Virus record (IMG/VR): IMGVR_UViG_3300031247_000001
Direction: 5' to 3' (one strand)
Source: an uncultured virus (IMG/VR IMGVR_UViG_3300031247_000001)
Lineage: Duplodnaviria > Heunggongvirae > Uroviricota > Caudoviricetes
DNA: 20,000 nt
Part shown: positions 143 through 15,809 of the stretch, one piece after another
Numbering within the stretch: the stretch's first letter is position 1
How the letters are laid out: each line of letters starts with the position of its first letter
Position numbers and translations under genes: made by a program
Notes under the pieces: generated by a model
Database searches by the model: none
What the model was told of the DNA's origin: nothing
The model's input: the letters and a program-made list of their open reading frames with translations, nothing else

Positions 143-243
143 CGCCCCACTAGGTCGGTTTGGGCTCGGGCTGCTGCCCGCAGGCAAACGGGACGATCGA
201 GCGGCGCGCAGATTTGCGCTTTCCCTCGGAGCGTCCCTTGACC

Positions 244-6054: not shown

Positions 6055-6408
6055 ATGGCCATGAGCAACGAGCAGATGCTTGACCAGATTGCGGGCCTCA
6101 TCGCGGAGTCTCGGGTCGAGTTCCGGCAAGCCATCTCAGACCTCGAGCTCGAAATCAGAACCGGCTTTTCTGGGGTCAGGAAAAATCAGATCGTCCAGGA
6201 AGCCAAGCTCGATAGCCTCGAGTGGGAGTTCGATGAGTTGAAGAAGGTGCTGAAAGCTCAGGATCAGGCGCTCGATGGTCTGACGCAGCTCGGCAAGACC
6301 AACTTCGACATGAATGAGTCGATCCTGAAGGCGATCCACGGTGAGTCGGGATCGGTCACAATTAGACATGGCGCAACTGAAGAGAGCAGCGGGGCTAACC
6401 CCCAGTAG
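6055..6408 (+). CDS. Coiled-coil hypothetical protein (~117 aa)
   Basis: AGGGA RBS before ATG 6055 (alternative 6061). Heptad-like LDSLEWEFDELKKVLKAQDQALDGL. Confidence 0.7.
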   Translation: MAMSNEQMLDQIAGLIAESRVEFRQAISDLELEIRTGFSGVRKNQIVQEAKLDSLEWEFDELKKVLKAQDQALDGLTQLGKTNFDMNESILKAIHGESGSVTIRHGATEESSGANPQ

Positions 6409-6763
6409 CCCTACGGTGCTCTTGGTAGATGACGATGATCGGTACCTCGATTCACTCGCCAGGTTCTTGGAGGGAGACTCCGCGCGTCTCCTTCGTGCGC
6501 GGTCAGGGCTCCACGCACTCGAGCAACTGAAAACCGAAACCGTGTCGCTCGTGGTGAGCGACTATTGGATGCCCGGGATGGACGGCGTGCAGCTACTCGA
6601 CGAGGTCATGCGTCTCTACCCGAGAGTTGGCCGAGTGCTGCTCACGGGCAGGCCCGACGCAGACATCGTGCTCGACTCGACGCGCCATCGGTTGCTCGTC
6701 AAGGGCATGGAGCCCGATTTGATTCGGCGGGTGATCCTGCGGGAGGCTCGTCGCCATGGCTAA
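6368..6763 (+). CDS. Stand-alone CheY-like response regulator receiver domain (~131 aa)
   Basis: VLLVDDD acidic pocket, LVVSDYWMPGMDG (phospho-Asp), LLTG (conserved Thr) and LVKG (conserved Lys); no output domain. Start uncertain (ATG 6368 vs 6341). Confidence 0.9.
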   Translation: MAQLKRAAGLTPSSPTVLLVDDDDRYLDSLARFLEGDSARLLRARSGLHALEQLKTETVSLVVSDYWMPGMDGVQLLDEVMRLYPRVGRVLLTGRPDADIVLDSTRHRLLVKGMEPDLIRRVILREARRHG

Positions 6764-8480: not shown

Positions 8481-9065
8481 ATGACGAAGCGAGCGACGGC
8501 TCGGTCGGTGCCGCCGCCGGCCCCCCCAGAGCGAGGGCAGTGCCTCCCGCGCGTGGAGGAAGAGCCCCTCAGCGCTGAAGAGGCGTACGTCGTCCTCGAG
8601 CCTTACTTCGAAGTGGTCCGCGAGGAGTACCTCGCTCAGGGCTTCAAGAAGTGTAAACGCACGCGTCTCTTCATCGCGCCCGCGATGCACGACTCGCCGC
8701 GCCACTTTGGCGCCTGCAAAGACGATGGGTCTGCGATCTTGCTCGCCCCCGAGCTCGCGGACGTGGCCGACACCGTGATGCTCGCGATCATGGCGCACGA
8801 GTTTGGGCACGCGACCGATTTCCTCTACCCGGGCGAGTTTGTGCTCGGGCGGAGTGGCCCGGCGCTGCGGCGGCAGCGCGCGGAGGTCGAGGAAAAGCAG
8901 TGGAGCAAATGGCTGAAAGCCTGGCACCGCCGCGACGAAGACGTGGTGGAGATCACGGCGGACGCCATCGCTGAGCGCGTGATGGGGGTGCCCTACGGCT
9001 ACCAGGGACCCTGCTGGATCCAAAGCTTTGACGCCGCAGAAGCGCGGCCCATGGGACTCCGATGA
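8481..9065 (+). CDS. Zincin-like metallopeptidase (HExxH), ~194 aa
   Basis: IMAHEFGHATD motif plus downstream EITADAIA (ExxAD third-ligand helix), as in M48/ImmA-IrrE-type zincins. Confidence 0.7.
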   Translation: MTKRATARSVPPPAPPERGQCLPRVEEEPLSAEEAYVVLEPYFEVVREEYLAQGFKKCKRTRLFIAPAMHDSPRHFGACKDDGSAILLAPELADVADTVMLAIMAHEFGHATDFLYPGEFVLGRSGPALRRQRAEVEEKQWSKWLKAWHRRDEDVVEITADAIAERVMGVPYGYQGPCWIQSFDAAEARPMGLR

Positions 9066-9277
9066 CCGACGAATCTCCGCAAACGTTTCCGACCATCGAA
9101 GCAGTCATCGCAGCTCACATCCGCTCGGTGCTCATCGCTACCCGTTGGAACTGCTCCGAATCCGCCCGGATCCTCGGCATCGATCGGCGCACGATCTACA
9201 GGCAGATCGCGCGCTACAAGATCGAGCGACCCCCGGAAGAGAAAAGCCCCGCGCCGAGCTCGGCCTGCGGGGAGTAG
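9062..9277 (+). CDS. Stand-alone Fis-type (HTH_8) DNA-binding protein (71 aa)
   Basis: TIEAVIAAHIRSVLIATRWNCSESARILGIDRRTIYRQIARY matches the C-terminal HTH of NtrC/Fis proteins. ATGA overlap with the upstream gene. Confidence 0.85.
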   Translation: MTDESPQTFPTIEAVIAAHIRSVLIATRWNCSESARILGIDRRTIYRQIARYKIERPPEEKSPAPSSACGE

Positions 9278-9288
9278 ACTTCTCTCGC

Positions 9289-9990
9289 ATGCCAGTGGCA
9301 GCGCCTGAACAGCGCGGAAGTAACCCGCGTCCCGGTGACGATCCCAACGAGGTCGTCAAGCAGTGGACGCCGCTCGTGAAGATGCTGGCGCGCTCGTACA
9401 GTAAGCACCTCGGTCGCTGGTACGAGTTTGATGATCTCGTCGCGATTGGTCAGGAGGCGCTCTGGGGGTGCATTTCGTATTGGAGAGAAGACGGCGGCGC
9501 CATCTTCAAGACCTTTGCGTACCATGCGATCGTGCATCGGTTTGAGGCGATCAAAAAGTACTGGAGGAGCAACAAGCGTCGGGGGTCGATCTACTCTGAC
9601 AGCATCGAAGACCCCGGCGAAGGTCGCCCGCGGACCGAGCTCAGCATCGAGGCCGATGACCAGGCGCTCGATCACCAGCGCGCTCTCTCGGGCCTCCGGC
9701 AAGCATTTGGTGGGCTACAGCCCCGCGAGGGTTACGTGCTAGAGGAGCGCTTCCTCGGCGATCGGTCTCTAAAAGAAGTCGGGCAGGCGCTCGGGGTTTC
9801 CCGGGAGCGGGCGCGTCAACTCGAGCGGCGCGGGCTCCAGAAATTGCGGAGATCGCTCATGGAGATCATCCCGGAGCTCCGGGATGCGCCTCCGGTCTCG
9901 AGCGGAGCCAGGGCCCGCTCGAGGACGGACGCCGAGGTGGGGCGCTGCAATCAGCAGCGCGCCCGACGAAAAGTTGCCCTCGGGCCCTGA
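9289..9990 (+). CDS. RNA polymerase sigma-70 family factor (FliA/SigB-like; regions 2 and 4), ~233 aa
   Basis: Region 2: PLVKMLARSY...FDDLVAIGQEALW...FKTFAYHAI. Region 4: LQPREGYVLEERF...SLKEVGQALGVSRERARQLERRGLQKLR. Confidence 0.9.
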   Translation: MPVAAPEQRGSNPRPGDDPNEVVKQWTPLVKMLARSYSKHLGRWYEFDDLVAIGQEALWGCISYWREDGGAIFKTFAYHAIVHRFEAIKKYWRSNKRRGSIYSDSIEDPGEGRPRTELSIEADDQALDHQRALSGLRQAFGGLQPREGYVLEERFLGDRSLKEVGQALGVSRERARQLERRGLQKLRRSLMEIIPELRDAPPVSSGARARSRTDAEVGRCNQQRARRKVALGP

Positions 9991-12932: not shown

Positions 12933-14297
12933 TCACCATGGCCGCTCCTTCAGCTGCGGGAACATCGCCATCGCCCGCAATCGATCGACCTCCCCGAGCT
13001 CTACCTGCCGCTCCTCGGCGGTGCGGTTTGATGCCCAGCTAGCTTGCAGGTTGTAGACGCTCAAGATCTGATAGATGCACGTGTAGCGCGCGCCCGCCAT
13101 CTCGAGCAGCGGCCACATGACGGCCTTGTCGATGGCGAGCGAGACCCAAGAGCCGTCGGGACGAAATAGGCAAGAAGGCGCGACGCCCGGACCGTTCGCG
13201 AGCTTCTTTGCTAGACCCGCCCGGAACGTCTTCAGGTGGGTCGCTCGCCAGTCCGAGTACCGCACGCGTGCGCCGAGCGCATAGGGAGCCGCAAACCCGA
13301 CCTCCCCATCGGAAAACATGAATTGTCCGTAGGTGAGCCAAGGCTCGGCCTTCGCGGCATAGGCGAGCGCCAAGACCTCGAGCGCGCGATCGTGCGCTAG
13401 CCAGTCGTCGCCATCGAGCCAGACGATGACTTCGTCGTCGGGGAGATCTTTCCAAACCGACCAGCAGTTTTCGAGCGCGGAGAGGCGCTCGGGGTTTCGG
13501 ATCACGGTGAGCTGCTGATCCGTTTCCATATTGAAGAGCGCGATCTCGCTCGTGCGGTCCTCGCTCTTGGCGTCGATGACGACGTGGGTGTAGTTCCGGA
13601 AAGTTTGATCGAGCACGCTGTCGAGGCACTTCTGGATCCAGCGCTCGGCGTTGAGCGCGGTCGACACGATCGTCATGTGCAGGGGCTTACCGCTCTTCAC
13701 GAGCACGCAGAAATTGTGGCGCCCCATCCAGTGCTGGGCCTGGTGCACCTCCATGAGTGAGCGGAGCTGCGCCGTGCGCGCCTCGTCCAGCGTCCATCCA
13801 TGAATGCGAAAGCGCGTGAGCCAGTACTCGGGCGGCTGCAAGTTGATGTGGCCCTCCCATTCCTGACCGGGCGCTGCCGCCGACCACACGATCACGTCCG
13901 TCGCGTGCACTGCGACATTTTCGACGATGGCGAGCGAATGCTGCTCGGAGATGTGCTCGGCCGTCTCGGTGCAGATCACGCAGGAATACTTGGCAACGGC
14001 GCCAGCCCCTTGCAGGGTTTGGGTCAAGTCAAACCGTTGCACCTCGACCCCCGGCTCGATCATCTCGATCGCGTGCGGCGAGTACTCCGCCCCGATCGTG
14101 CCCTCCCACCCGAGCTCGATCAGGCGAGCGGTCTGTAGGCCGATACCGCACCCGATGTCGAGGCAGCTCGGTTGCTGCCCGACTACCGCGTGGATGCAAT
14201 CGGCGAGCTTTCGGTAGTTGTCGCGGCACTCGCGCATTTGCTCGAAAAATGCCTGGTCATGCGGGTCTCGATTGGCTTGATTTTCAGTGTTTCCCAT
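12933..14297 (-). CDS. Class I SAM-dependent methyltransferase fused to a family 2 glycosyltransferase (454 aa)
   Basis: N-terminal CLDIGCGIG, ICTETAEHI and SAAAPGQEWEGHINLQ. C-terminal IVSTALNAERWIQKCLDSVLDQT...VVIDAKSED...VWLDGDD (DxD). Confidence 0.9.
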   Translation of the reverse strand: MGNTENQANRDPHDQAFFEQMRECRDNYRKLADCIHAVVGQQPSCLDIGCGIGLQTARLIELGWEGTIGAEYSPHAIEMIEPGVEVQRFDLTQTLQGAGAVAKYSCVICTETAEHISEQHSLAIVENVAVHATDVIVWSAAAPGQEWEGHINLQPPEYWLTRFRIHGWTLDEARTAQLRSLMEVHQAQHWMGRHNFCVLVKSGKPLHMTIVSTALNAERWIQKCLDSVLDQTFRNYTHVVIDAKSEDRTSEIALFNMETDQQLTVIRNPERLSALENCWSVWKDLPDDEVIVWLDGDDWLAHDRALEVLALAYAAKAEPWLTYGQFMFSDGEVGFAAPYALGARVRYSDWRATHLKTFRAGLAKKLANGPGVAPSCLFRPDGSWVSLAIDKAVMWPLLEMAGARYTCIYQILSVYNLQASWASNRTAEERQVELGEVDRLRAMAMFPQLKERPW

Positions 14298-14305
14298 TGC
14301 GTGAG

Positions 14306-14334
14306 ACAGTAGCGTGCTATCTTCGGGAAGGAAA
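14306..14334 (-). promoter_or_regulatory. Candidate leaderless promoter (TTTCCT-N17-TACTGT), 8 nt before ATG 14297
   Basis: -10 TACTGT at 14311-14306; weak -35; no SD. Confidence 0.35.
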
Positions 14335-14371
14335 GCCGAAAGCCCGCAGTAGCACGGGGGAGGAGATCGCC

Positions 14372-15130
14372 ATGAAGAGTTTGTTTTTGGTTTGCCTCAT
14401 CGTCGCCATGACTGCCTGCGGCGCGCCGTTCACGGCGGAGTCGTTTACCGATAGCGGGAGCGCCGGTGCCATCGGGGCTCCGGCGGCACCGAGCGCAGGC
14501 GCGGCCGGCGCCGAGCCGCGCGAGGATGCCGGCGGAGCGACGAGCATCCCGCTCGAGTCAGCTGGCGCCGCCGGCGCCGCCGGCGCGCCTGACCTAGGCT
14601 CCGCCGGCGCGCCGAGCGTCGACCCGCCGCCGCTCTACACGCCGCCCCCGTGCTCCACCGACCAGAACGTCACCGGCGGCTACGACGGATCGCTCAGCGC
14701 CGCCCCTGCCTGCCTCCGCACCAAGGAGGCCCTCAACACCGTTGCTTGTGCCAACTGGGACGGGCGATCGATCACCGTCAACGGCGCCGCGGCGACCTGC
14801 GGCGTCCCGCTCTCCTTCCCGGAGAGCGTCGATGGCTTCACGTACATCGATCTCGGCCCGGGGACGAGCTCTGGCGTCGCGCTCCGGTGGTTTTTGACAG
14901 CGCCCGCCCCAAACCCCTGCGACGCGCGTTGGTGGACCCAGGGCGACCTCTACGCCCCGAACGAAATCATGCTCGATGTCTGCGACGCGCCCGGGAGCGA
15001 AAAGAGCTGCGAGCTCGGCAAGACCTACGCCTTCTCGTGCCTCGACACCCCGACCAGCCGGTGCACCAGCACGGGGCCCGGCGCAAGCGGCTGGACTTCG
15101 AGCTGGGCGCTGGTTACCCTCTGCAAGTAA
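14372..15130 (+). CDS. Cys-rich lipoprotein, myxobacterial style (~252 aa)
   Basis: GGAGGAG RBS; signal peptide MKSLFLVCLIVAMTA|C (lipobox); G/A/P-rich linker; multi-Cys extracellular domains. Confidence 0.85.
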   Translation: MKSLFLVCLIVAMTACGAPFTAESFTDSGSAGAIGAPAAPSAGAAGAEPREDAGGATSIPLESAGAAGAAGAPDLGSAGAPSVDPPPLYTPPPCSTDQNVTGGYDGSLSAAPACLRTKEALNTVACANWDGRSITVNGAAATCGVPLSFPESVDGFTYIDLGPGTSSGVALRWFLTAPAPNPCDARWWTQGDLYAPNEIMLDVCDAPGSEKSCELGKTYAFSCLDTPTSRCTSTGPGASGWTSSWALVTLCK

Positions 15131-15356
15131 AGGCAGCGCGACGCCTACGGAAGTCGCGACCACGCGGTGCTGGGGCAAAGGGAGCTCGGCCCCTACGGAA
15201 GCCGAGACAAGCCATGACCGAGAAACGACCGCCAGGGTTTAGACAAGTGCAAAGGGAGCTCGGCCCCTACGGAAGCCGAGACAAATCCTGCCGGGCGGCT
15301 ACCTGGCCTATCTCGACACGGTGCAAAGGGAGCTCGGCCCCTACGGAAGCCGAGAC
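15125..15356 (-). CRISPR. CRISPR mini-array without adjacent cas genes: three 36-bp repeats plus one diverged repeat; spacers of 38, 38 and 12 nt
   Basis: Plus-strand repeat GTGCAAAGGGAGCTCGGCCCCTACGGAAGCCGAGAC at 15321-15356, 15247-15282 and 15173-15208 (1 mismatch). Diverged copy at 15125-15160 (27/36). Unique spacers at 15283-15320, 15209-15246 and 15161-15172. Minus orientation is inferred from the 9-bp G-U-containing hairpin and from degeneracy at the low-coordinate end. Confidence 0.88.
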
Positions 15357-15390
15357 CTGCTAGGTTTGCGAGGGGGCTAGCGGCCAGAAT

Positions 15391-15420
15391 TTGACTTCGG
15401 ATCCGGTACCCGGGTAGCCT
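15391..15420 (+). promoter_or_regulatory. sigma70-like promoter (TTGACT-N18-TAGCCT), 8 nt before ATG 15429 (leaderless candidate)
   Basis: Near-consensus -35; overlaps the palindrome TACCCGGGTA (15407-15416); lies in the presumed CRISPR leader region. Confidence 0.6.
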
Positions 15421-15428
15421 CTCGTTCA

Positions 15429-15809
15429 ATGGCCGTTGCAATTGGATCCCGCGTCGCGCTCAAGACTCTTGGACAAGGTCTGGCCATCGGCCAGGTGACC
15501 GCTCAGCCGCCCGTCTTTGGCGTGTCGCAGACGGCCTCCCCGGGCCCTTGCGTCATCGACTGGGAGAACGGCGCTCAAGCCACGGTGCCGCTCGCGGTGC
15601 TGGACGAACTCCTCGGGGCCAACCCGACTACGCTCGGTCTCATCGGGCAGGTCGTCAACGTCGAGGGGCAGTCGGCGGCGTACAATGCCCTCGTGGTCGA
15701 TGCCTACAACCGCAACGGCACTCAAGAGCTCGTGCTCGTCAAGACCCTAAACAACGGGACGTACTTCGAGCTCGACGCCACCACCGTCGTCCCGCAACCG
15801 AACCTCTGA
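15429..15809 (+). CDS. Hypothetical beta-rich protein, possibly tandem SH3-like barrels (126 aa)
   Basis: Two similar halves (IGSRVAL...VIDWENG; IGQVVNV...VKTLNNG); promoter immediately upstream. Confidence 0.7.
   Translation: MAVAIGSRVALKTLGQGLAIGQVTAQPPVFGVSQTASPGPCVIDWENGAQATVPLAVLDELLGANPTTLGLIGQVVNVEGQSAAYNALVVDAYNRNGTQELVLVKTLNNGTYFELDATTVVPQPNL

What the first reader, a model, noticed from the sequence alone, without database searches (positions are those of the whole stretch)
15125..15208. Diverged repeat with compensatory stem changes bounding a 12-nt spacer: candidate regulatory crRNA or RNA anti-CRISPR
Seen: AAGTAAAGGCAGCGCGACGCCTACGGAAGTCGCGAC (15125-15160) differs from the consensus at 9 of 36 positions. 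Four of these form two compensatory pairs (stem CTCGGC/GCCGAG becomes CGCGAC/GTCGCG), and CCTACGGAAG is intact. It lies only 12 nt (minus strand CAGCACCGCGTG) from the next repeat, whose 8-nt tag is also altered (CTTTGCCC). Covariation implies selection on RNA structure rather than simple trailer decay. Known: CreA/CreR-type crRNA-like RNAs use diverged repeats and limited complementarity to repress promoters; Racr solitary repeat units inhibit Cascade; CAST homing crRNAs use atypical repeats. Inference: the locus may combine two full-length interference guides with a short non-cleaving guide that represses a host or phage promoter or titrates Cas proteins, which may be an undescribed combination.
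Basis: partly seen in the sequence, partly recalled or inferred. Interest (0 to 1): 0.85.

Follow-up and report, generated by a model that had tools for sequence, protein, structure and literature searches.

The report
Conserved odd repeat heading phage mini-array
The flagged sequence is a structurally intact, evolutionarily maintained copy of the RNA handle used by a phage-encoded DNA-binding CRISPR protein (Cas12m), sitting at the front of a small phage CRISPR array; it is not a decayed repeat, but what its 12-base tail does remains unproven.

Summary
At 15125-15160 a repeat differs from the array consensus at 9 of 36 positions and lies 12 nt from the next repeat. Six of the nine changes form three compensatory pairs: two in the hairpin and one in a pseudoknot helix. 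The window is a high-GC phage. Three related phage contigs carry the same repeat family downstream of a compact Cas12m gene (type V-M, DNA-binding only). G-U pairs show the RNA is read on the + strand, so the odd repeat (R0) is the first unit, not a trailer. One relative (G002) has an orthologous R0 at the same place, after the same lipoprotein gene. Its stem has a different sequence but is fully paired, its loop is conserved, and its gap is 15 nt. Another relative (G007) has five lone units of this kind between genes. The gap sequence is no better conserved than synonymous sites, and no convincing target was found. Best reading: a selected, solitary-repeat-type Cas12m scaffold that works through its structure (a processing or effector-loading element at the mRNA-array junction). 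A short-guide regulatory role remains possible. New variant of a known kind.

The parts
14249..15130 (+). Upstream ORF (293 aa as listed). It is lipoprotein-like, with a probable true start at ATG 14372 (MKSLFLVCLIVAMTAC...). Its stop codon TAA 15128-15130 lies inside the 5' end of R0.
   Evidence: The ORF list, GC3 of about 0.9 in this frame and the translation with a lipobox-like AMTAC define it. It has no Pfam or PHROG family. It is 60% identical to the ORF that precedes array B in G002.
15125..15160 (+). R0, the diverged repeat. It reads as an intact Cas12m-type crRNA scaffold. Hairpin arms are 15137-15142 (CGCGAC) and 15153-15158 (GTCGCG), the loop is 15143-15152, the pseudoknot pairs 15131-15134 with 15143-15146, and the 3' end is AC.
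   Evidence: An orthologous unit in G002 (L036 10300-10335) has stem CATGGT/ACCATG and loop GCCTACAGAA.
15161..15172 (+). 12-nt gap (CACGCGGTGCTG) between R0 and R1. This is shorter than the 17-bp guide-target duplex reported for Cas12m2.
   Evidence: Searches give the gap. The G002 counterpart is 15 nt, with 8 of 12 positions identical after a 3-nt offset (read). The 17-bp duplex is from PMC10442227 section 7.
15173..15208 (+). R1, the first consensus-type repeat (T2>G only).
   Evidence: The T2>G change favours an alternative hairpin in the predicted fold.
15209..15246 (+). Spacer 1 (38 nt).
   Evidence: No significant match in G001, G002 or the window, nor in the phage collection (best E 0.1).
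15247..15282 (+). R2, consensus repeat.
15283..15320 (+). Spacer 2 (38 nt).
   Evidence: No significant match (best E 0.5).
15321..15356 (+). R3, consensus repeat and last unit. In a type V reading, the sequence after it (15357 onward) could act as a further guide.
15429..15809 (+). Downstream ORF (126 aa) on the same strand. Its homologue in G001 (71% identity) has no array in front of it.
14176..14192 (-). Weak candidate partial match to the R0 gap plus the first 5 nt of R1 (14 of 17, with the first 8 contiguous). It lies in the 5' coding part of the divergent methyltransferase-glycosyltransferase gene and is probably chance.
   Evidence: (I4). Among shuffled guides, 4 of 300 reach 14/17 in the 1.6-kb upstream region and 18 of 100 do so anywhere in the window. 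The homologous G002 site does not match the G002 gap.

Best explanation
R0 is a selected, structurally intact Cas12m (type V-M) crRNA scaffold of the solitary-repeat kind. It stands at the 5' edge of a phage-borne mini-array that is read on the + strand. The array is probably co-transcribed with the upstream lipoprotein-like gene. Shown: its identity as a member of this repeat family, the strand, its conservation, and compensatory evolution of both helices. Inferred: the phage's Cas12m binds R0 and cuts beside it as it does at ordinary repeats. Because only 12 nt follow (fewer than the 17 bp Cas12m2 pairs), the product would work through its scaffold, not through a specific guide. It would separate the lipoprotein mRNA from the crRNA array and occupy effector protein without giving it a usable guide. 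R0 would be an old anchor unit beside which the exchangeable array (R1-R3) sits.
For: (1) Repeat family and effector. Three related phage contigs carry this repeat family directly downstream of, and on the same strand as, a compact gene that matches Cas12m. The matches are PADLOC Cas12u1/Cas12f at E 5e-48 and 2e-49 and PDB chain 23vw_A 'Cas12m' at E 3.8e-36. The RuvC positions read N-E-D, a triad listed for Cas12m clades 3 and 4 (PMC10442227). The loci are G001, G002 and G007. A fourth, more distant locus is L061.
(2) Structure. On 26 distinct units, 92.3% of cells pair and the hairpin pairs in 97.4%. Six of 10 pairs change on both sides, and 0 of 500 shuffles reach any measure. Sliding the partners gives 31-39% paired.
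(3) Strand. Pairing is 240 of 260 on + against 226 of 260 on the reverse strand.
(4) R0 itself. All 6 differences in its structured part are compensated (simulated rate 9e-5).
(5) Orthologue. In G002 the same gene order (sigma factor, methyltransferase-glycosyltransferase, lipoprotein gene, array) holds an R0 with a conserved pseudoknot and loop (14 of 16 positions identical, against 40 of 68 at synonymous third positions). Its stems are only 4 of 12 identical, yet 6 of 6 pairs are Watson-Crick in both phages. The downstream arrays share no spacer.
(6) Related units. G007 has five lone units with the same 5' flank and loop and with individually different, fully paired stems. They lie between co-directional genes. 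A structure-aware scan found 0 such units in reversed-sequence controls. G001 has three such units directly before the cas12m start codon.
(7) Gap. At 8 of 12 identical, the gap is not more conserved than neutral sites.
(8) Transcription. No sigma-70-like promoter or terminator lies between the lipoprotein ORF and the array, and the conserved cas12m-array leader seen in G001 and G002 is absent here.
Against: No cas12m gene lies in the 20-kb window (tblastn best E 0.98), and the whole genome is not held. That this phage encodes Cas12m is inferred from relatives and from leader-like loose ends in run X1. No RNA data exist, so binding, cutting and co-transcription are all unshown. The cleavage position in the repeat is unknown for this clade. 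If the cut in R1 falls after position 5-7, the R0 product would carry a 17-19-nt 3' part and could act as a guide. R0-specific conservation rests on two genomes only. G001 has a homologous lipoprotein gene with no R0 or array after it, so the unit is dispensable. Main arrays need no R0-like unit before their first repeat, so a processing role is not obligatory. Sub-17-nt gaps also occur inside an ordinary array (7, 9, 10 and 15 nt among 38 in-array gaps of L061). A short gap can therefore be a deletion by-product.
Confidence: 0.4

Rival explanations
1. Short-guide crRNA (CreR/crlRNA-like, or simply a minimal guide). R0 plus the 12-nt gap, possibly extended by the first 5-7 nt of R1, would guide Cas12m to a partially matching site in the phage, in a rival phage or in the host, and repress it by binding.
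For: R0 keeps every scaffold feature. Cas12m acts by binding alone (PMC11013384). Spacers of 17-23 nt are common in related arrays: G002 array B and L061 with a mode of 18-19 nt. Twelve nt plus 5 nt of R1 would reach 17. A 14/17 site with an 8-nt seed lies at 14176-14192, near the start of the lipoprotein-array unit. The altered base of R1 (T2>G) matches it, and it is preceded by ATC; the one clear protospacer in this phage group is preceded by TTC. CreR units with a repeat-like handle and partial matches repress cas12a (10.1101/2023.03.10.532045, passages).
Against: The gap is 8 of 12 identical between the window and G002, the level of synonymous sites. The homologous site in G002 does not match the G002 gap, whose best match in the region is 13/17. 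A 14/17 match somewhere in the window arises for 18 of 100 shuffled guides. No seed of 9 nt or more for the G002 gap exists elsewhere in G002's 110 kb. The 11/12 match at 15591-15602 is mismatched at guide position 2. The host genome and the rest of this phage could not be searched.
Confidence: 0.25
2. RNA anti-CRISPR-like decoy (Racr type). R0 would mimic the scaffold of the Cas12m of rival phages (or of a host) and trap that protein on an RNA without a usable guide.
For: R0 carries the C10-G19 pair type used by the arrays of G001 and G007, whereas its own array uses G10-C19. These phages appear to fight one another: a G002 spacer matches 27 of 28 bases of G001's cas12m gene. Racrs are solitary repeat mimics encoded by viruses (PMC10651486; only the search listing and the start of the abstract were seen).
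Against: Relatives that carry such lone units also carry their own Cas12m with the same scaffold type (G007, G001). The units would therefore titrate their own effector. A swapped base pair within a helix is unlikely to make the scaffold specific for a foreign protein. R0 is not solitary but abuts an array. No inhibition data exist.
Confidence: 0.12
3. Non-functional remnant. R0 and the short gap would be a scar of array rearrangement (a deletion inside an old spacer, or a junction left when an array was seeded next to an older repeat), with the hairpin not yet decayed.
For: Arrays of this phage group, which show no adaptation genes next to cas12m, are irregular. L061 has gaps of 7-15 nt inside its array. 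G001's upstream units include a 51-nt tandem duplication. G001 lacks the unit after its lipoprotein homologue. Shmakov et al. consider many solitary repeats spurious duplications (10.1101/2023.03.03.530964, passages).
Against: The pseudoknot and loop are 14 of 16 identical between two phages whose synonymous sites are 59% identical. Four stem positions changed on each arm, with every pair kept. The simulated rate for the window's R0 pattern is 9e-5. Five lone units in G007 all keep 6 of 6 pairs with four different stems.
Confidence: 0.15
4. Decayed trailer-end repeat of a type I array read on the minus strand (the null reading that the first reader argued against).
For: Terminal repeats of arrays are often degenerate. 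On the minus strand the consensus repeat folds into a longer stem with G-U pairs.
Against: Across the family, 11 hairpin cells are G-U on + and would be A-C on the minus strand. In 4 of 4 related loci the array follows cas12m on the strand that puts the hairpin at the 3' end of the repeat. No type I gene was seen: 0 of 28 window ORFs hit a Cas family.
Confidence: 0.02

Closest known systems
Type V-M (formerly V-U1) CRISPR-Cas12m crRNA scaffold (MmCas12m2, GoCas12m, MsCas12m)
   Same: A 36-nt repeat with a 6-bp helix closing next to the 3' end, followed by A and C. A G opposite the A matches the position of the G(-23):A(-2) pair. A second helix forms a pseudoknot, and there is no anti-repeat or tracrRNA. 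The guide lies 3' of the repeat, and the effector is a small RuvC protein with a non-canonical triad. Sources: PMC10442227 section 7 and discussion, PMC11013384 section 36.
   Different: The loop is 10 nt here against 8 nt in Cas12m2. The effectors of the relatives are shorter (about 479-514 aa against about 600) and are phage-encoded. R0 is followed by 12 nt rather than a spacer. The window itself shows no cas12m.
Solitary repeat units (SRUs) next to cas12a in type V-A loci (Shmakov et al., 10.1101/2023.03.03.530964)
   Same: These are conserved, rather diverged single repeat copies associated with a type V effector locus, with no conserved targeting pattern found. The authors propose that they bind and down-regulate the effector (passages).
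   Different: Here the unit is in a phage, belongs to type V-M, heads a secondary mini-array far from (or without) the effector gene, and shows explicit compensatory evolution. Sister units lie between ordinary phage genes.
CreR / CreA / crlRNA regulatory mini-arrays
   Same: A degenerate repeat that keeps the handle and the stem-loop, followed by a short spacer-like segment (10.1101/2023.03.10.532045, passages).
   Different: CreR is defined by partial complementarity to a PAM-flanked site at the cas promoter. No such site was found here or in G002. The effector here is not a nuclease, so limited pairing is not needed to avoid cleavage.
RNA anti-CRISPRs (Racrs; PMC10651486) and viral crlRNAs (10.1101/2024.10.29.618823)
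   Same: Virus-encoded repeat mimics without normal spacers.
   Different: Those act on host systems. Here the phages themselves encode the cognate effector and arrays. Only the listings and the starts of the abstracts of these two papers were seen.
Phage-encoded Cas12m of a myxophage (MvCas12m; preprint 10.64898/2026.09.14.751636)
   Same: A phage type V-M locus with the effector next to an array, and without cas1, cas2 or cas4 (passages).
   Different: That protein has 610 aa and a D-E-D triad. No lone or atypical repeats are described in the passages seen.

Membership tests
Type V-M CRISPR repeat / Cas12m crRNA scaffold | Repeat-derived scaffold with a 3'-proximal helix plus a pseudoknot, supported by covariation | tested here: met
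   92.3% of cells paired, 6 of 10 pairs changed on both sides, and 0 of 500 shuffles as high. R0 has 10 of 10 pairs intact.
Type V-M CRISPR repeat / Cas12m crRNA scaffold | Conserved 3' end ...A C next to the guide, with a G opposite the A (G(-23):A(-2) and C(-1) in Cas12m2) | tested here: met
   R0 has G12, A35 and C36. The G002 orthologue has A12, G35 and C36.
Type V-M CRISPR repeat / Cas12m crRNA scaffold | Association with a cas12m gene | tested here: inconclusive
   None in the 20-kb window, and no whole genome is held. The feature is met in 3 related contigs with the same repeat family. Run X1 shows leader-like sequence joined to the same repeat.
Type V-M CRISPR repeat / Cas12m crRNA scaffold | Followed by a guide long enough for the 17-bp duplex | tested here: not met
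   Only 12 nt lie before R1. A length of 17-19 nt is reached only if the RNA reads into R1, and the cleavage site is unknown.
CreR / crlRNA regulatory cr-like RNA | Degenerate repeat retaining the handle and stem-loop | tested here: met
CreR / crlRNA regulatory cr-like RNA | Spacer-like part partially complementary to a PAM-flanked site at the cas (or toxin) promoter | tested here: not met
   The window offers only a 14/17 site of chance-level score. In G002, which holds cas12m, the gap has no seed of 9 nt or more anywhere else. The cas12m promoter of the window's own phage could not be examined.
CreR / crlRNA regulatory cr-like RNA | Located within or beside the cas locus | tested here: not met
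   The unit lies after a lipoprotein gene with no cas gene within 20 kb. G001's three units before cas12m would meet this feature.
Racr (RNA anti-CRISPR) | Solitary repeat mimic of a CRISPR repeat, encoded by a virus | tested here: inconclusive
   It is virus-encoded and repeat-like, but it abuts an array. Truly solitary sister units exist in G007.
Racr (RNA anti-CRISPR) | Inhibits a Cas effector of the host or a rival by forming aberrant complexes | not testable with these tools
   No host is known and no assay is possible.
Degenerate terminal (trailer) repeat | Lies at the leader-distal end, with changes that ignore RNA structure | tested here: not met
   R0 is the first unit in the supported orientation, and all structured-part changes are compensated.

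The most novel reading that the evidence does not exclude
Phages of this group may use their nuclease-dead Cas12m together with hard-wired lone scaffolds (R0 here; five in G007; three before cas12m in G001) as a post-transcriptional and transcriptional control network. Cas12m would cut polycistronic phage messages at these scaffolds and stay bound to the 5' end of the downstream RNA. This could regulate neighbouring genes, including cas12m itself and the lipoprotein-array unit, and could turn adjacent sequence into guides. The individually diverged stems would then be selected to keep the fold while avoiding recombination with the arrays.
Probability: 0.18. Interest if true: 0.85.

Novelty: new variant of a known kind. 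Interest (0 to 1): 0.6.

Why it matters
Lone or atypical CRISPR repeats are usually dismissed as decay. Here the comparison of two phages gives direct evolutionary evidence that one such unit is maintained for its RNA fold, in a system (phage-encoded Cas12m) whose effector only binds DNA. If the scaffold-only or network reading is right, it would show a phage using a CRISPR effector and fixed repeat units to manage its own transcripts or effector supply, rather than for adaptive immunity. It also points to very small natural Cas12m variants (about 480-510 aa) with natural guides as short as 17-23 nt. That is of practical interest for compact programmable repressors.

Tried and rejected
- **Exact or degenerate repeat-core scans.** Viral contigs gave 0 and metagenome contigs gave 0. 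Genome contigs gave 1 hit, which lies inside a long ORF of an efflux-pump-like gene with no repeat around it and is chance.
- **Rfam.** 0 matches in the window at gathering thresholds.
- **Own genome.** Not held.
- **Phage collection.** blastn with 4.5 kb around the array found no match.
- **Lipoprotein searches.** The single-protein search found only a spurious short hit. The alignment search found G002 and two distant metagenome loci (33% and 28% identity) without repeats.
- **Mistyped pattern.** A pattern with six instead of five N cost one scan and gave 2 chance hits. The corrected pattern gave 8 loci, of which 4 are real and 4 are chance hits without complementary arms.
- **Targets of the 12-nt gap.** There is an 11/12 match at 15591-15602 with a mismatch at position 2, and a 14/17 match at 14176-14192. 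Neither is above chance nor conserved.
- **Targets of G001's three upstream units near cas12m.** Only 7-8-nt seeds were found.
- **Spacers 1 and 2.** Nothing in G001, G002 or the window, and nothing in the phage collection (best E 0.1 and 0.5).
- **Promoter and terminator scan.** 0 promoter-like sites, and no terminator-like site at R0. The phage has its own sigma factor, so this says little.
- **Fold of R0-gap-R1.** Not better than shuffles for the window (z -0.04). For G002 it is (z -2.79). This was not pursued.
- **Sequencing runs.** No RNA holder is listed. The contigs of X1 break at the repeats, and X2-X4 give no cover of R0.
- **Earlier-findings look-ups.** Those by place and by sequence found nothing.
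Full report
**What is in the window.**
The sequence at 15125-15356 holds four 36-nt direct repeats at start-to-start spacings of 48, 74 and 74 nt. R2 (15247-15282) and R3 (15321-15356) are identical. R1 (15173-15208) differs at one base (T2>G). R0 (15125-15160) differs from the consensus at 9 of 36 positions. Two 38-nt spacers separate R1-R2 and R2-R3, and 12 nt (15161-15172) separate R0 from R1.

The array fills a 298-nt gap between two + strand ORFs. Both reading frames are supported by third-position GC of 0.8-0.9. The upstream ORF, 14249-15130, encodes a lipoprotein-like protein with a lipobox-like AMTAC. Its stop codon TAA 15128-15130 lies inside the 5' end of R0. The downstream ORF is 15429-15809.

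The window is phage DNA. It holds an 1801-aa collagen-repeat tail fibre, a sigma factor, a DUF7227 protein and an exonuclease. Eight of 28 ORFs hit PHROGs, 8 of 28 hit Pfam, and none hits a Cas family. GC content is 60-74%.

**Checking the observation.**

I add a third compensatory pair. Positions 7-10 (AGGG) can pair with 19-22 (CCCT) across the hairpin as a pseudoknot, and R0 has G10>C together with C19>G. So all six differences in the structured part of R0 are compensated. The remaining three (positions 1, 2, 4) lie in the 5' end that overlaps the stop codon.

In 500,000 simulations of nine random substitutions, 'no broken pair and at least three double changes' occurred at a rate of 9e-5.

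**Relatives and the system.**
The exact repeat core occurs nowhere else in the three collections, apart from one chance hit in an efflux-pump-like gene.

Protein searches found a related phage, G001 (135 kb, terminal repeats). Its DUF7227 protein is 73% identical and its 126-aa protein is 71% identical to those of the window. At the position matching the window's array, G001 has only a 34-nt gap. Elsewhere it carries 23 repeats of a related sequence.

Directly upstream of that array, on the same strand, lies a 488-aa ORF (P0001). It matches PADLOC Cas12f and Cas12u1 models (E 2e-49, 5e-48) and a solved 'DNA-binding protein Cas12m' (23vw_A, E 3.8e-36). Pfam sees only the C-terminal Cas12f1-like TNB domain, below cut-off. 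In the alignment to 23vw_A the RuvC positions read N, E, D. N-E-D is one of the triads listed for Cas12m clades 3 and 4 (PMC10442227 discussion).

A second relative, G002 (110.7 kb, linear, 82% complete), has a 72% identical gene followed by five repeats that run into the contig end. A third, G007 (41 kb fragment), has a 47% identical N-E-D homologue followed by 24 or more repeats. A fourth, distant locus (L061, 34% identity) has 41 units.

According to the papers read (PMC11013384 passages and section 36; PMC10442227 passages and section 7), Cas12m has these properties:
- it binds DNA without cutting it;
- it matures its own pre-crRNA by a cut within the repeat, independently of RuvC;
- it uses no tracrRNA;
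- in Cas12m2 it pairs 17 nt of guide;
- its scaffold is a pseudoknot plus stem ending in A(-2) C(-1), with a G(-23):A(-2) pair.

The repeats here have the same layout, with G12, A35 and C36.

**Strand.**
Many repeat variants in G001 and G002 keep the hairpin only through G-U pairs on the strand that equals the window's + strand. Over 26 distinct units, 240 of 260 cells pair on + and 226 of 260 on the reverse strand. For the hairpin alone the figures are 152 of 156 and 141 of 156.

In 4 of 4 related loci the array follows cas12m in this orientation. R0 is therefore the first unit of the window's array, not a trailer repeat.

**Covariation of the family.**
I aligned 26 distinct units out of 42 catalogued in the window, G001 and G002. 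Duplicates were removed, and two units with a 1-nt insertion (G2B_R2 and G1m_14) were dropped. G007 units were found later and are not included.

With the structure ......[[[[..((((((]]]]......)))))).., 92.3% of cells pair and 6 of 10 pairs change on both sides. None of 500 shuffles reaches any of the five measures, and sliding the partners gives 31-39% paired.
- The hairpin pairs in 97.4% of cells, with 5 of 6 pairs changed on both sides.
- Pair 10/19 is C-G in 16 units, G-C in 8 and U-G in 2, and is never unpaired.
- Pair 7/22 is not supported in G001 (16 unpaired cells).

**R0 is conserved.**
G002 shares the window's gene order: sigma factor, a divergent methyltransferase-glycosyltransferase gene, the lipoprotein gene (60% identity), then an array.

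Thirty nucleotides after the lipoprotein stop codon, G002 has AAACGAAGGCAACATGGTGCCTACAGAAACCATGGC. Then come 15 nt, and then a consensus-type repeat. Compared with the window's R0:
- the pseudoknot arm, linker and loop are 14 of 16 identical;
- the two stem arms are only 4 of 12 identical, yet 6 of 6 pairs are Watson-Crick in both phages;
- synonymous third positions of the adjacent gene are 40 of 68 (59%) identical.

With a neutral identity of 0.59, 14 or more of 16 has a binomial probability of about 0.015 (my arithmetic).

The arrays behind R0 share no spacer and differ in size. The window has two 38-nt spacers. G002 has spacers of about 35, 17, 21, 23 and 30 nt. R0 and its short gap are therefore older than the array content.

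G001 has a distant lipoprotein homologue but no R0 or array behind it.

**Sister units.**
A pattern built from the parts shared by the two R0 copies found G007. Its main-array repeat has the same 5' flank and loop. A structure-aware scan then found five lone units in G007 outside the array, with stems CTCGAT/ATCGAG (twice), CCTGAT/ATCAGG, CTCGAC/GTCGAG and CTCGGC/GCCGAG. It found none in reversed-sequence controls of the four sequences.

These lone units lie between co-directional genes. In one, the upstream stop codon lies inside the unit, as in the window. Another ends 28 nt before the next start codon.

G001 has three units directly before cas12m, with gaps of 15 and 25 nt. The upstream stop codon lies inside the first unit, and the last unit ends 29 nt before the cas12m ATG. 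R0 belongs to this class of individually evolving, structure-preserving lone scaffolds.

**Does the 12-nt gap guide anything?**
The gap is 8 of 12 identical to the G002 gap after a 3-nt offset, which is no better than synonymous sites.

In the window the best matches are:
- 11 of 12 at 15591-15602, with the mismatch at guide position 2;
- 14 of 17 at 14176-14192 for the gap plus five bases of R1. This site has an 8-nt seed, is preceded by ATC, and lies in the 5' part of the divergent methyltransferase-glycosyltransferase gene.

A score of 14 of 17 is reached by 4 of 300 shuffled guides in the 1.6-kb upstream region and by 18 of 100 anywhere in the window. The homologous site of G002 does not match the G002 gap. 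The G002 gap has no seed of 9 nt or more elsewhere in its 110 kb. So there is no support for a specific target. The host and the rest of this phage could not be searched.

Sub-17-nt gaps are not unique to R0. L061 has gaps of 7, 9, 10 and 15 nt among 38 in-array gaps, while most of its distal spacers are 18-23 nt. This suggests that spacers shrink to about the functional length and that shorter ones are by-products.

**Mechanism.**
Shown:
- R0 is a member of a Cas12m repeat family;
- it lies on the transcribed strand of its neighbours;
- it has both helices intact and its key end bases present;
- it is conserved above the neutral level, with compensated stem turnover.

Inferred:
- it is transcribed with the lipoprotein gene, because no promoter-like or terminator-like site was found and the conserved cas12m-array leader of G001 and G002 is missing;
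- Cas12m binds it and cuts beside it;
- the product acts through the scaffold, either by separating the mRNA from the array or by occupying the effector.

I put this reading at 0.4. The rivals are a short guide (0.25), a decoy against rival Cas12m (0.12), a remnant (0.15) and type I trailer decay (0.02).

Main weaknesses:
- no cas12m in the window;
- R0 orthology rests on two genomes;
- there are no RNA data (no RNA holder listed);
- the cleavage site in the repeat is unknown, and it decides whether the tail could reach 17-19 nt.

**Known work and novelty.**
The closest described things are:
- conserved solitary repeat units beside cas12a, with no targeting pattern found and a proposed effector-binding role (10.1101/2023.03.03.530964, passages);
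- CreR (10.1101/2023.03.10.532045, passages);
- Racrs (PMC10651486, listing and start of abstract only);
- viral crlRNAs (listing and start of abstract only);
- a phage Cas12m reported as the first of its kind (10.64898/2026.09.14.751636, passages; 610 aa, D-E-D).

My searches used 'Cas12m' (88 papers, 15 listed), 'solitary repeat/anti-CRISPR/Racr' and 'CreR/cas regulation/degenerate repeat/crRNA-like'. In what I read, none showed a description of covarying lone scaffolds in Cas12m phages or of such a unit heading a mini-array. Supplements were not consulted, and Wu et al. 2022 was seen only as a citation.

Earlier AI notes of this scan report lone Cas12m repeats between genes in other phage genomes. 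They agree with this reading but are not independent evidence.

Verdict: new variant of a known kind; interest 0.6.

Noticed in passing
L031 (G002) 166-203 minus strand spacer; target G002 1850-1887; G001 28809-28836: The third spacer of G002's cas12m-adjacent array matches G002's own cas12m gene at 36 of 38 bases. The mismatches are at guide positions 6 and 28, and the site is preceded by TTC. The same spacer matches G001's cas12m at 27 of 28 bases. This suggests either rivalry between related phages aimed at each other's effector gene, or autoregulation.
   Followed up: partly
L038 (G001) 8975-9122, minus strand (G001 28975-29122): Three atypical repeat units sit between an upstream ORF and the cas12m start codon, with gaps of 15 and 25 nt. 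The stop codon of the upstream ORF lies inside unit 1. Units 1-2 are a 51-nt tandem duplication, and the last unit ends 29 nt before the ATG.
   Followed up: partly
G007 (L055/L056): 17974 (+), 19083, 11786, 9065, 5728 (-): Five lone repeat units lie outside the array. Each has a fully paired stem, with four different stem sequences among them. They are wedged between co-directional genes. One contains the upstream stop codon, and one ends 28 nt before the next ATG.
   Followed up: partly
L061 4415-6787 and 8377-8456: A distant phage Cas12m locus has a 41-unit array. Its first ten spacers are 29-44 nt, mostly 36-44 nt. Distal spacers are mostly 18-23 nt, with a few of 7-15 nt, as if spacers shrink to about the length Cas12m pairs.
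   Followed up: partly
G001 28960-28974 (-), 41337-41351 (+), 50950-50963 (+): The motif GCAACTTTTTGGGC follows the last unit before cas12m and recurs twice elsewhere in G001 within a longer shared stretch (…GGGCCGAGAGGGGT). It may be a phage regulatory motif rather than a guide-target pair, because the bases before it differ between sites.
   Followed up: partly
window 15161-15208; L036 10336-10386: In predicted folds the gap plus the 5' end of R1 forms an alternative hairpin that competes with R1's normal hairpin. In the window this is GGGGC/GCCCC, helped by the T2>G change. In G002 the gap pairs with R1's 5' arm, and that fold is better than 198 of 200 shuffles. The window's fold is not better than shuffles.
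   Followed up: partly
window 15113-15415 in run X1: Summed contig depth on the repeats is about 134, against about 17 on the flanks. Loose ends before a repeat resemble the leader that lies between cas12m and the array in G001 and G002. The sample therefore holds further arrays with this repeat, possibly this phage's main array.
   Followed up: no
window 6341-6763: A phage ORF with a response-regulator receiver domain (Pfam E 2.7e-15) lies a few genes upstream of a phage sigma factor (9028-9990).
   Followed up: no
G001 25791-25828 and 26297-26340 (minus strand): Two spacers of G001's main array are 94% identical over 36 nt, indicating duplication of a repeat-spacer unit within the array.
   Followed up: no
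window 12933-14297 (-): This is a fused methyltransferase-glycosyltransferase gene, divergent from the lipoprotein gene. The pair is conserved in G002 (76% identity) and G001 (63%). The R0 and array follow the lipoprotein gene only in the window and in G002.
   Followed up: partly
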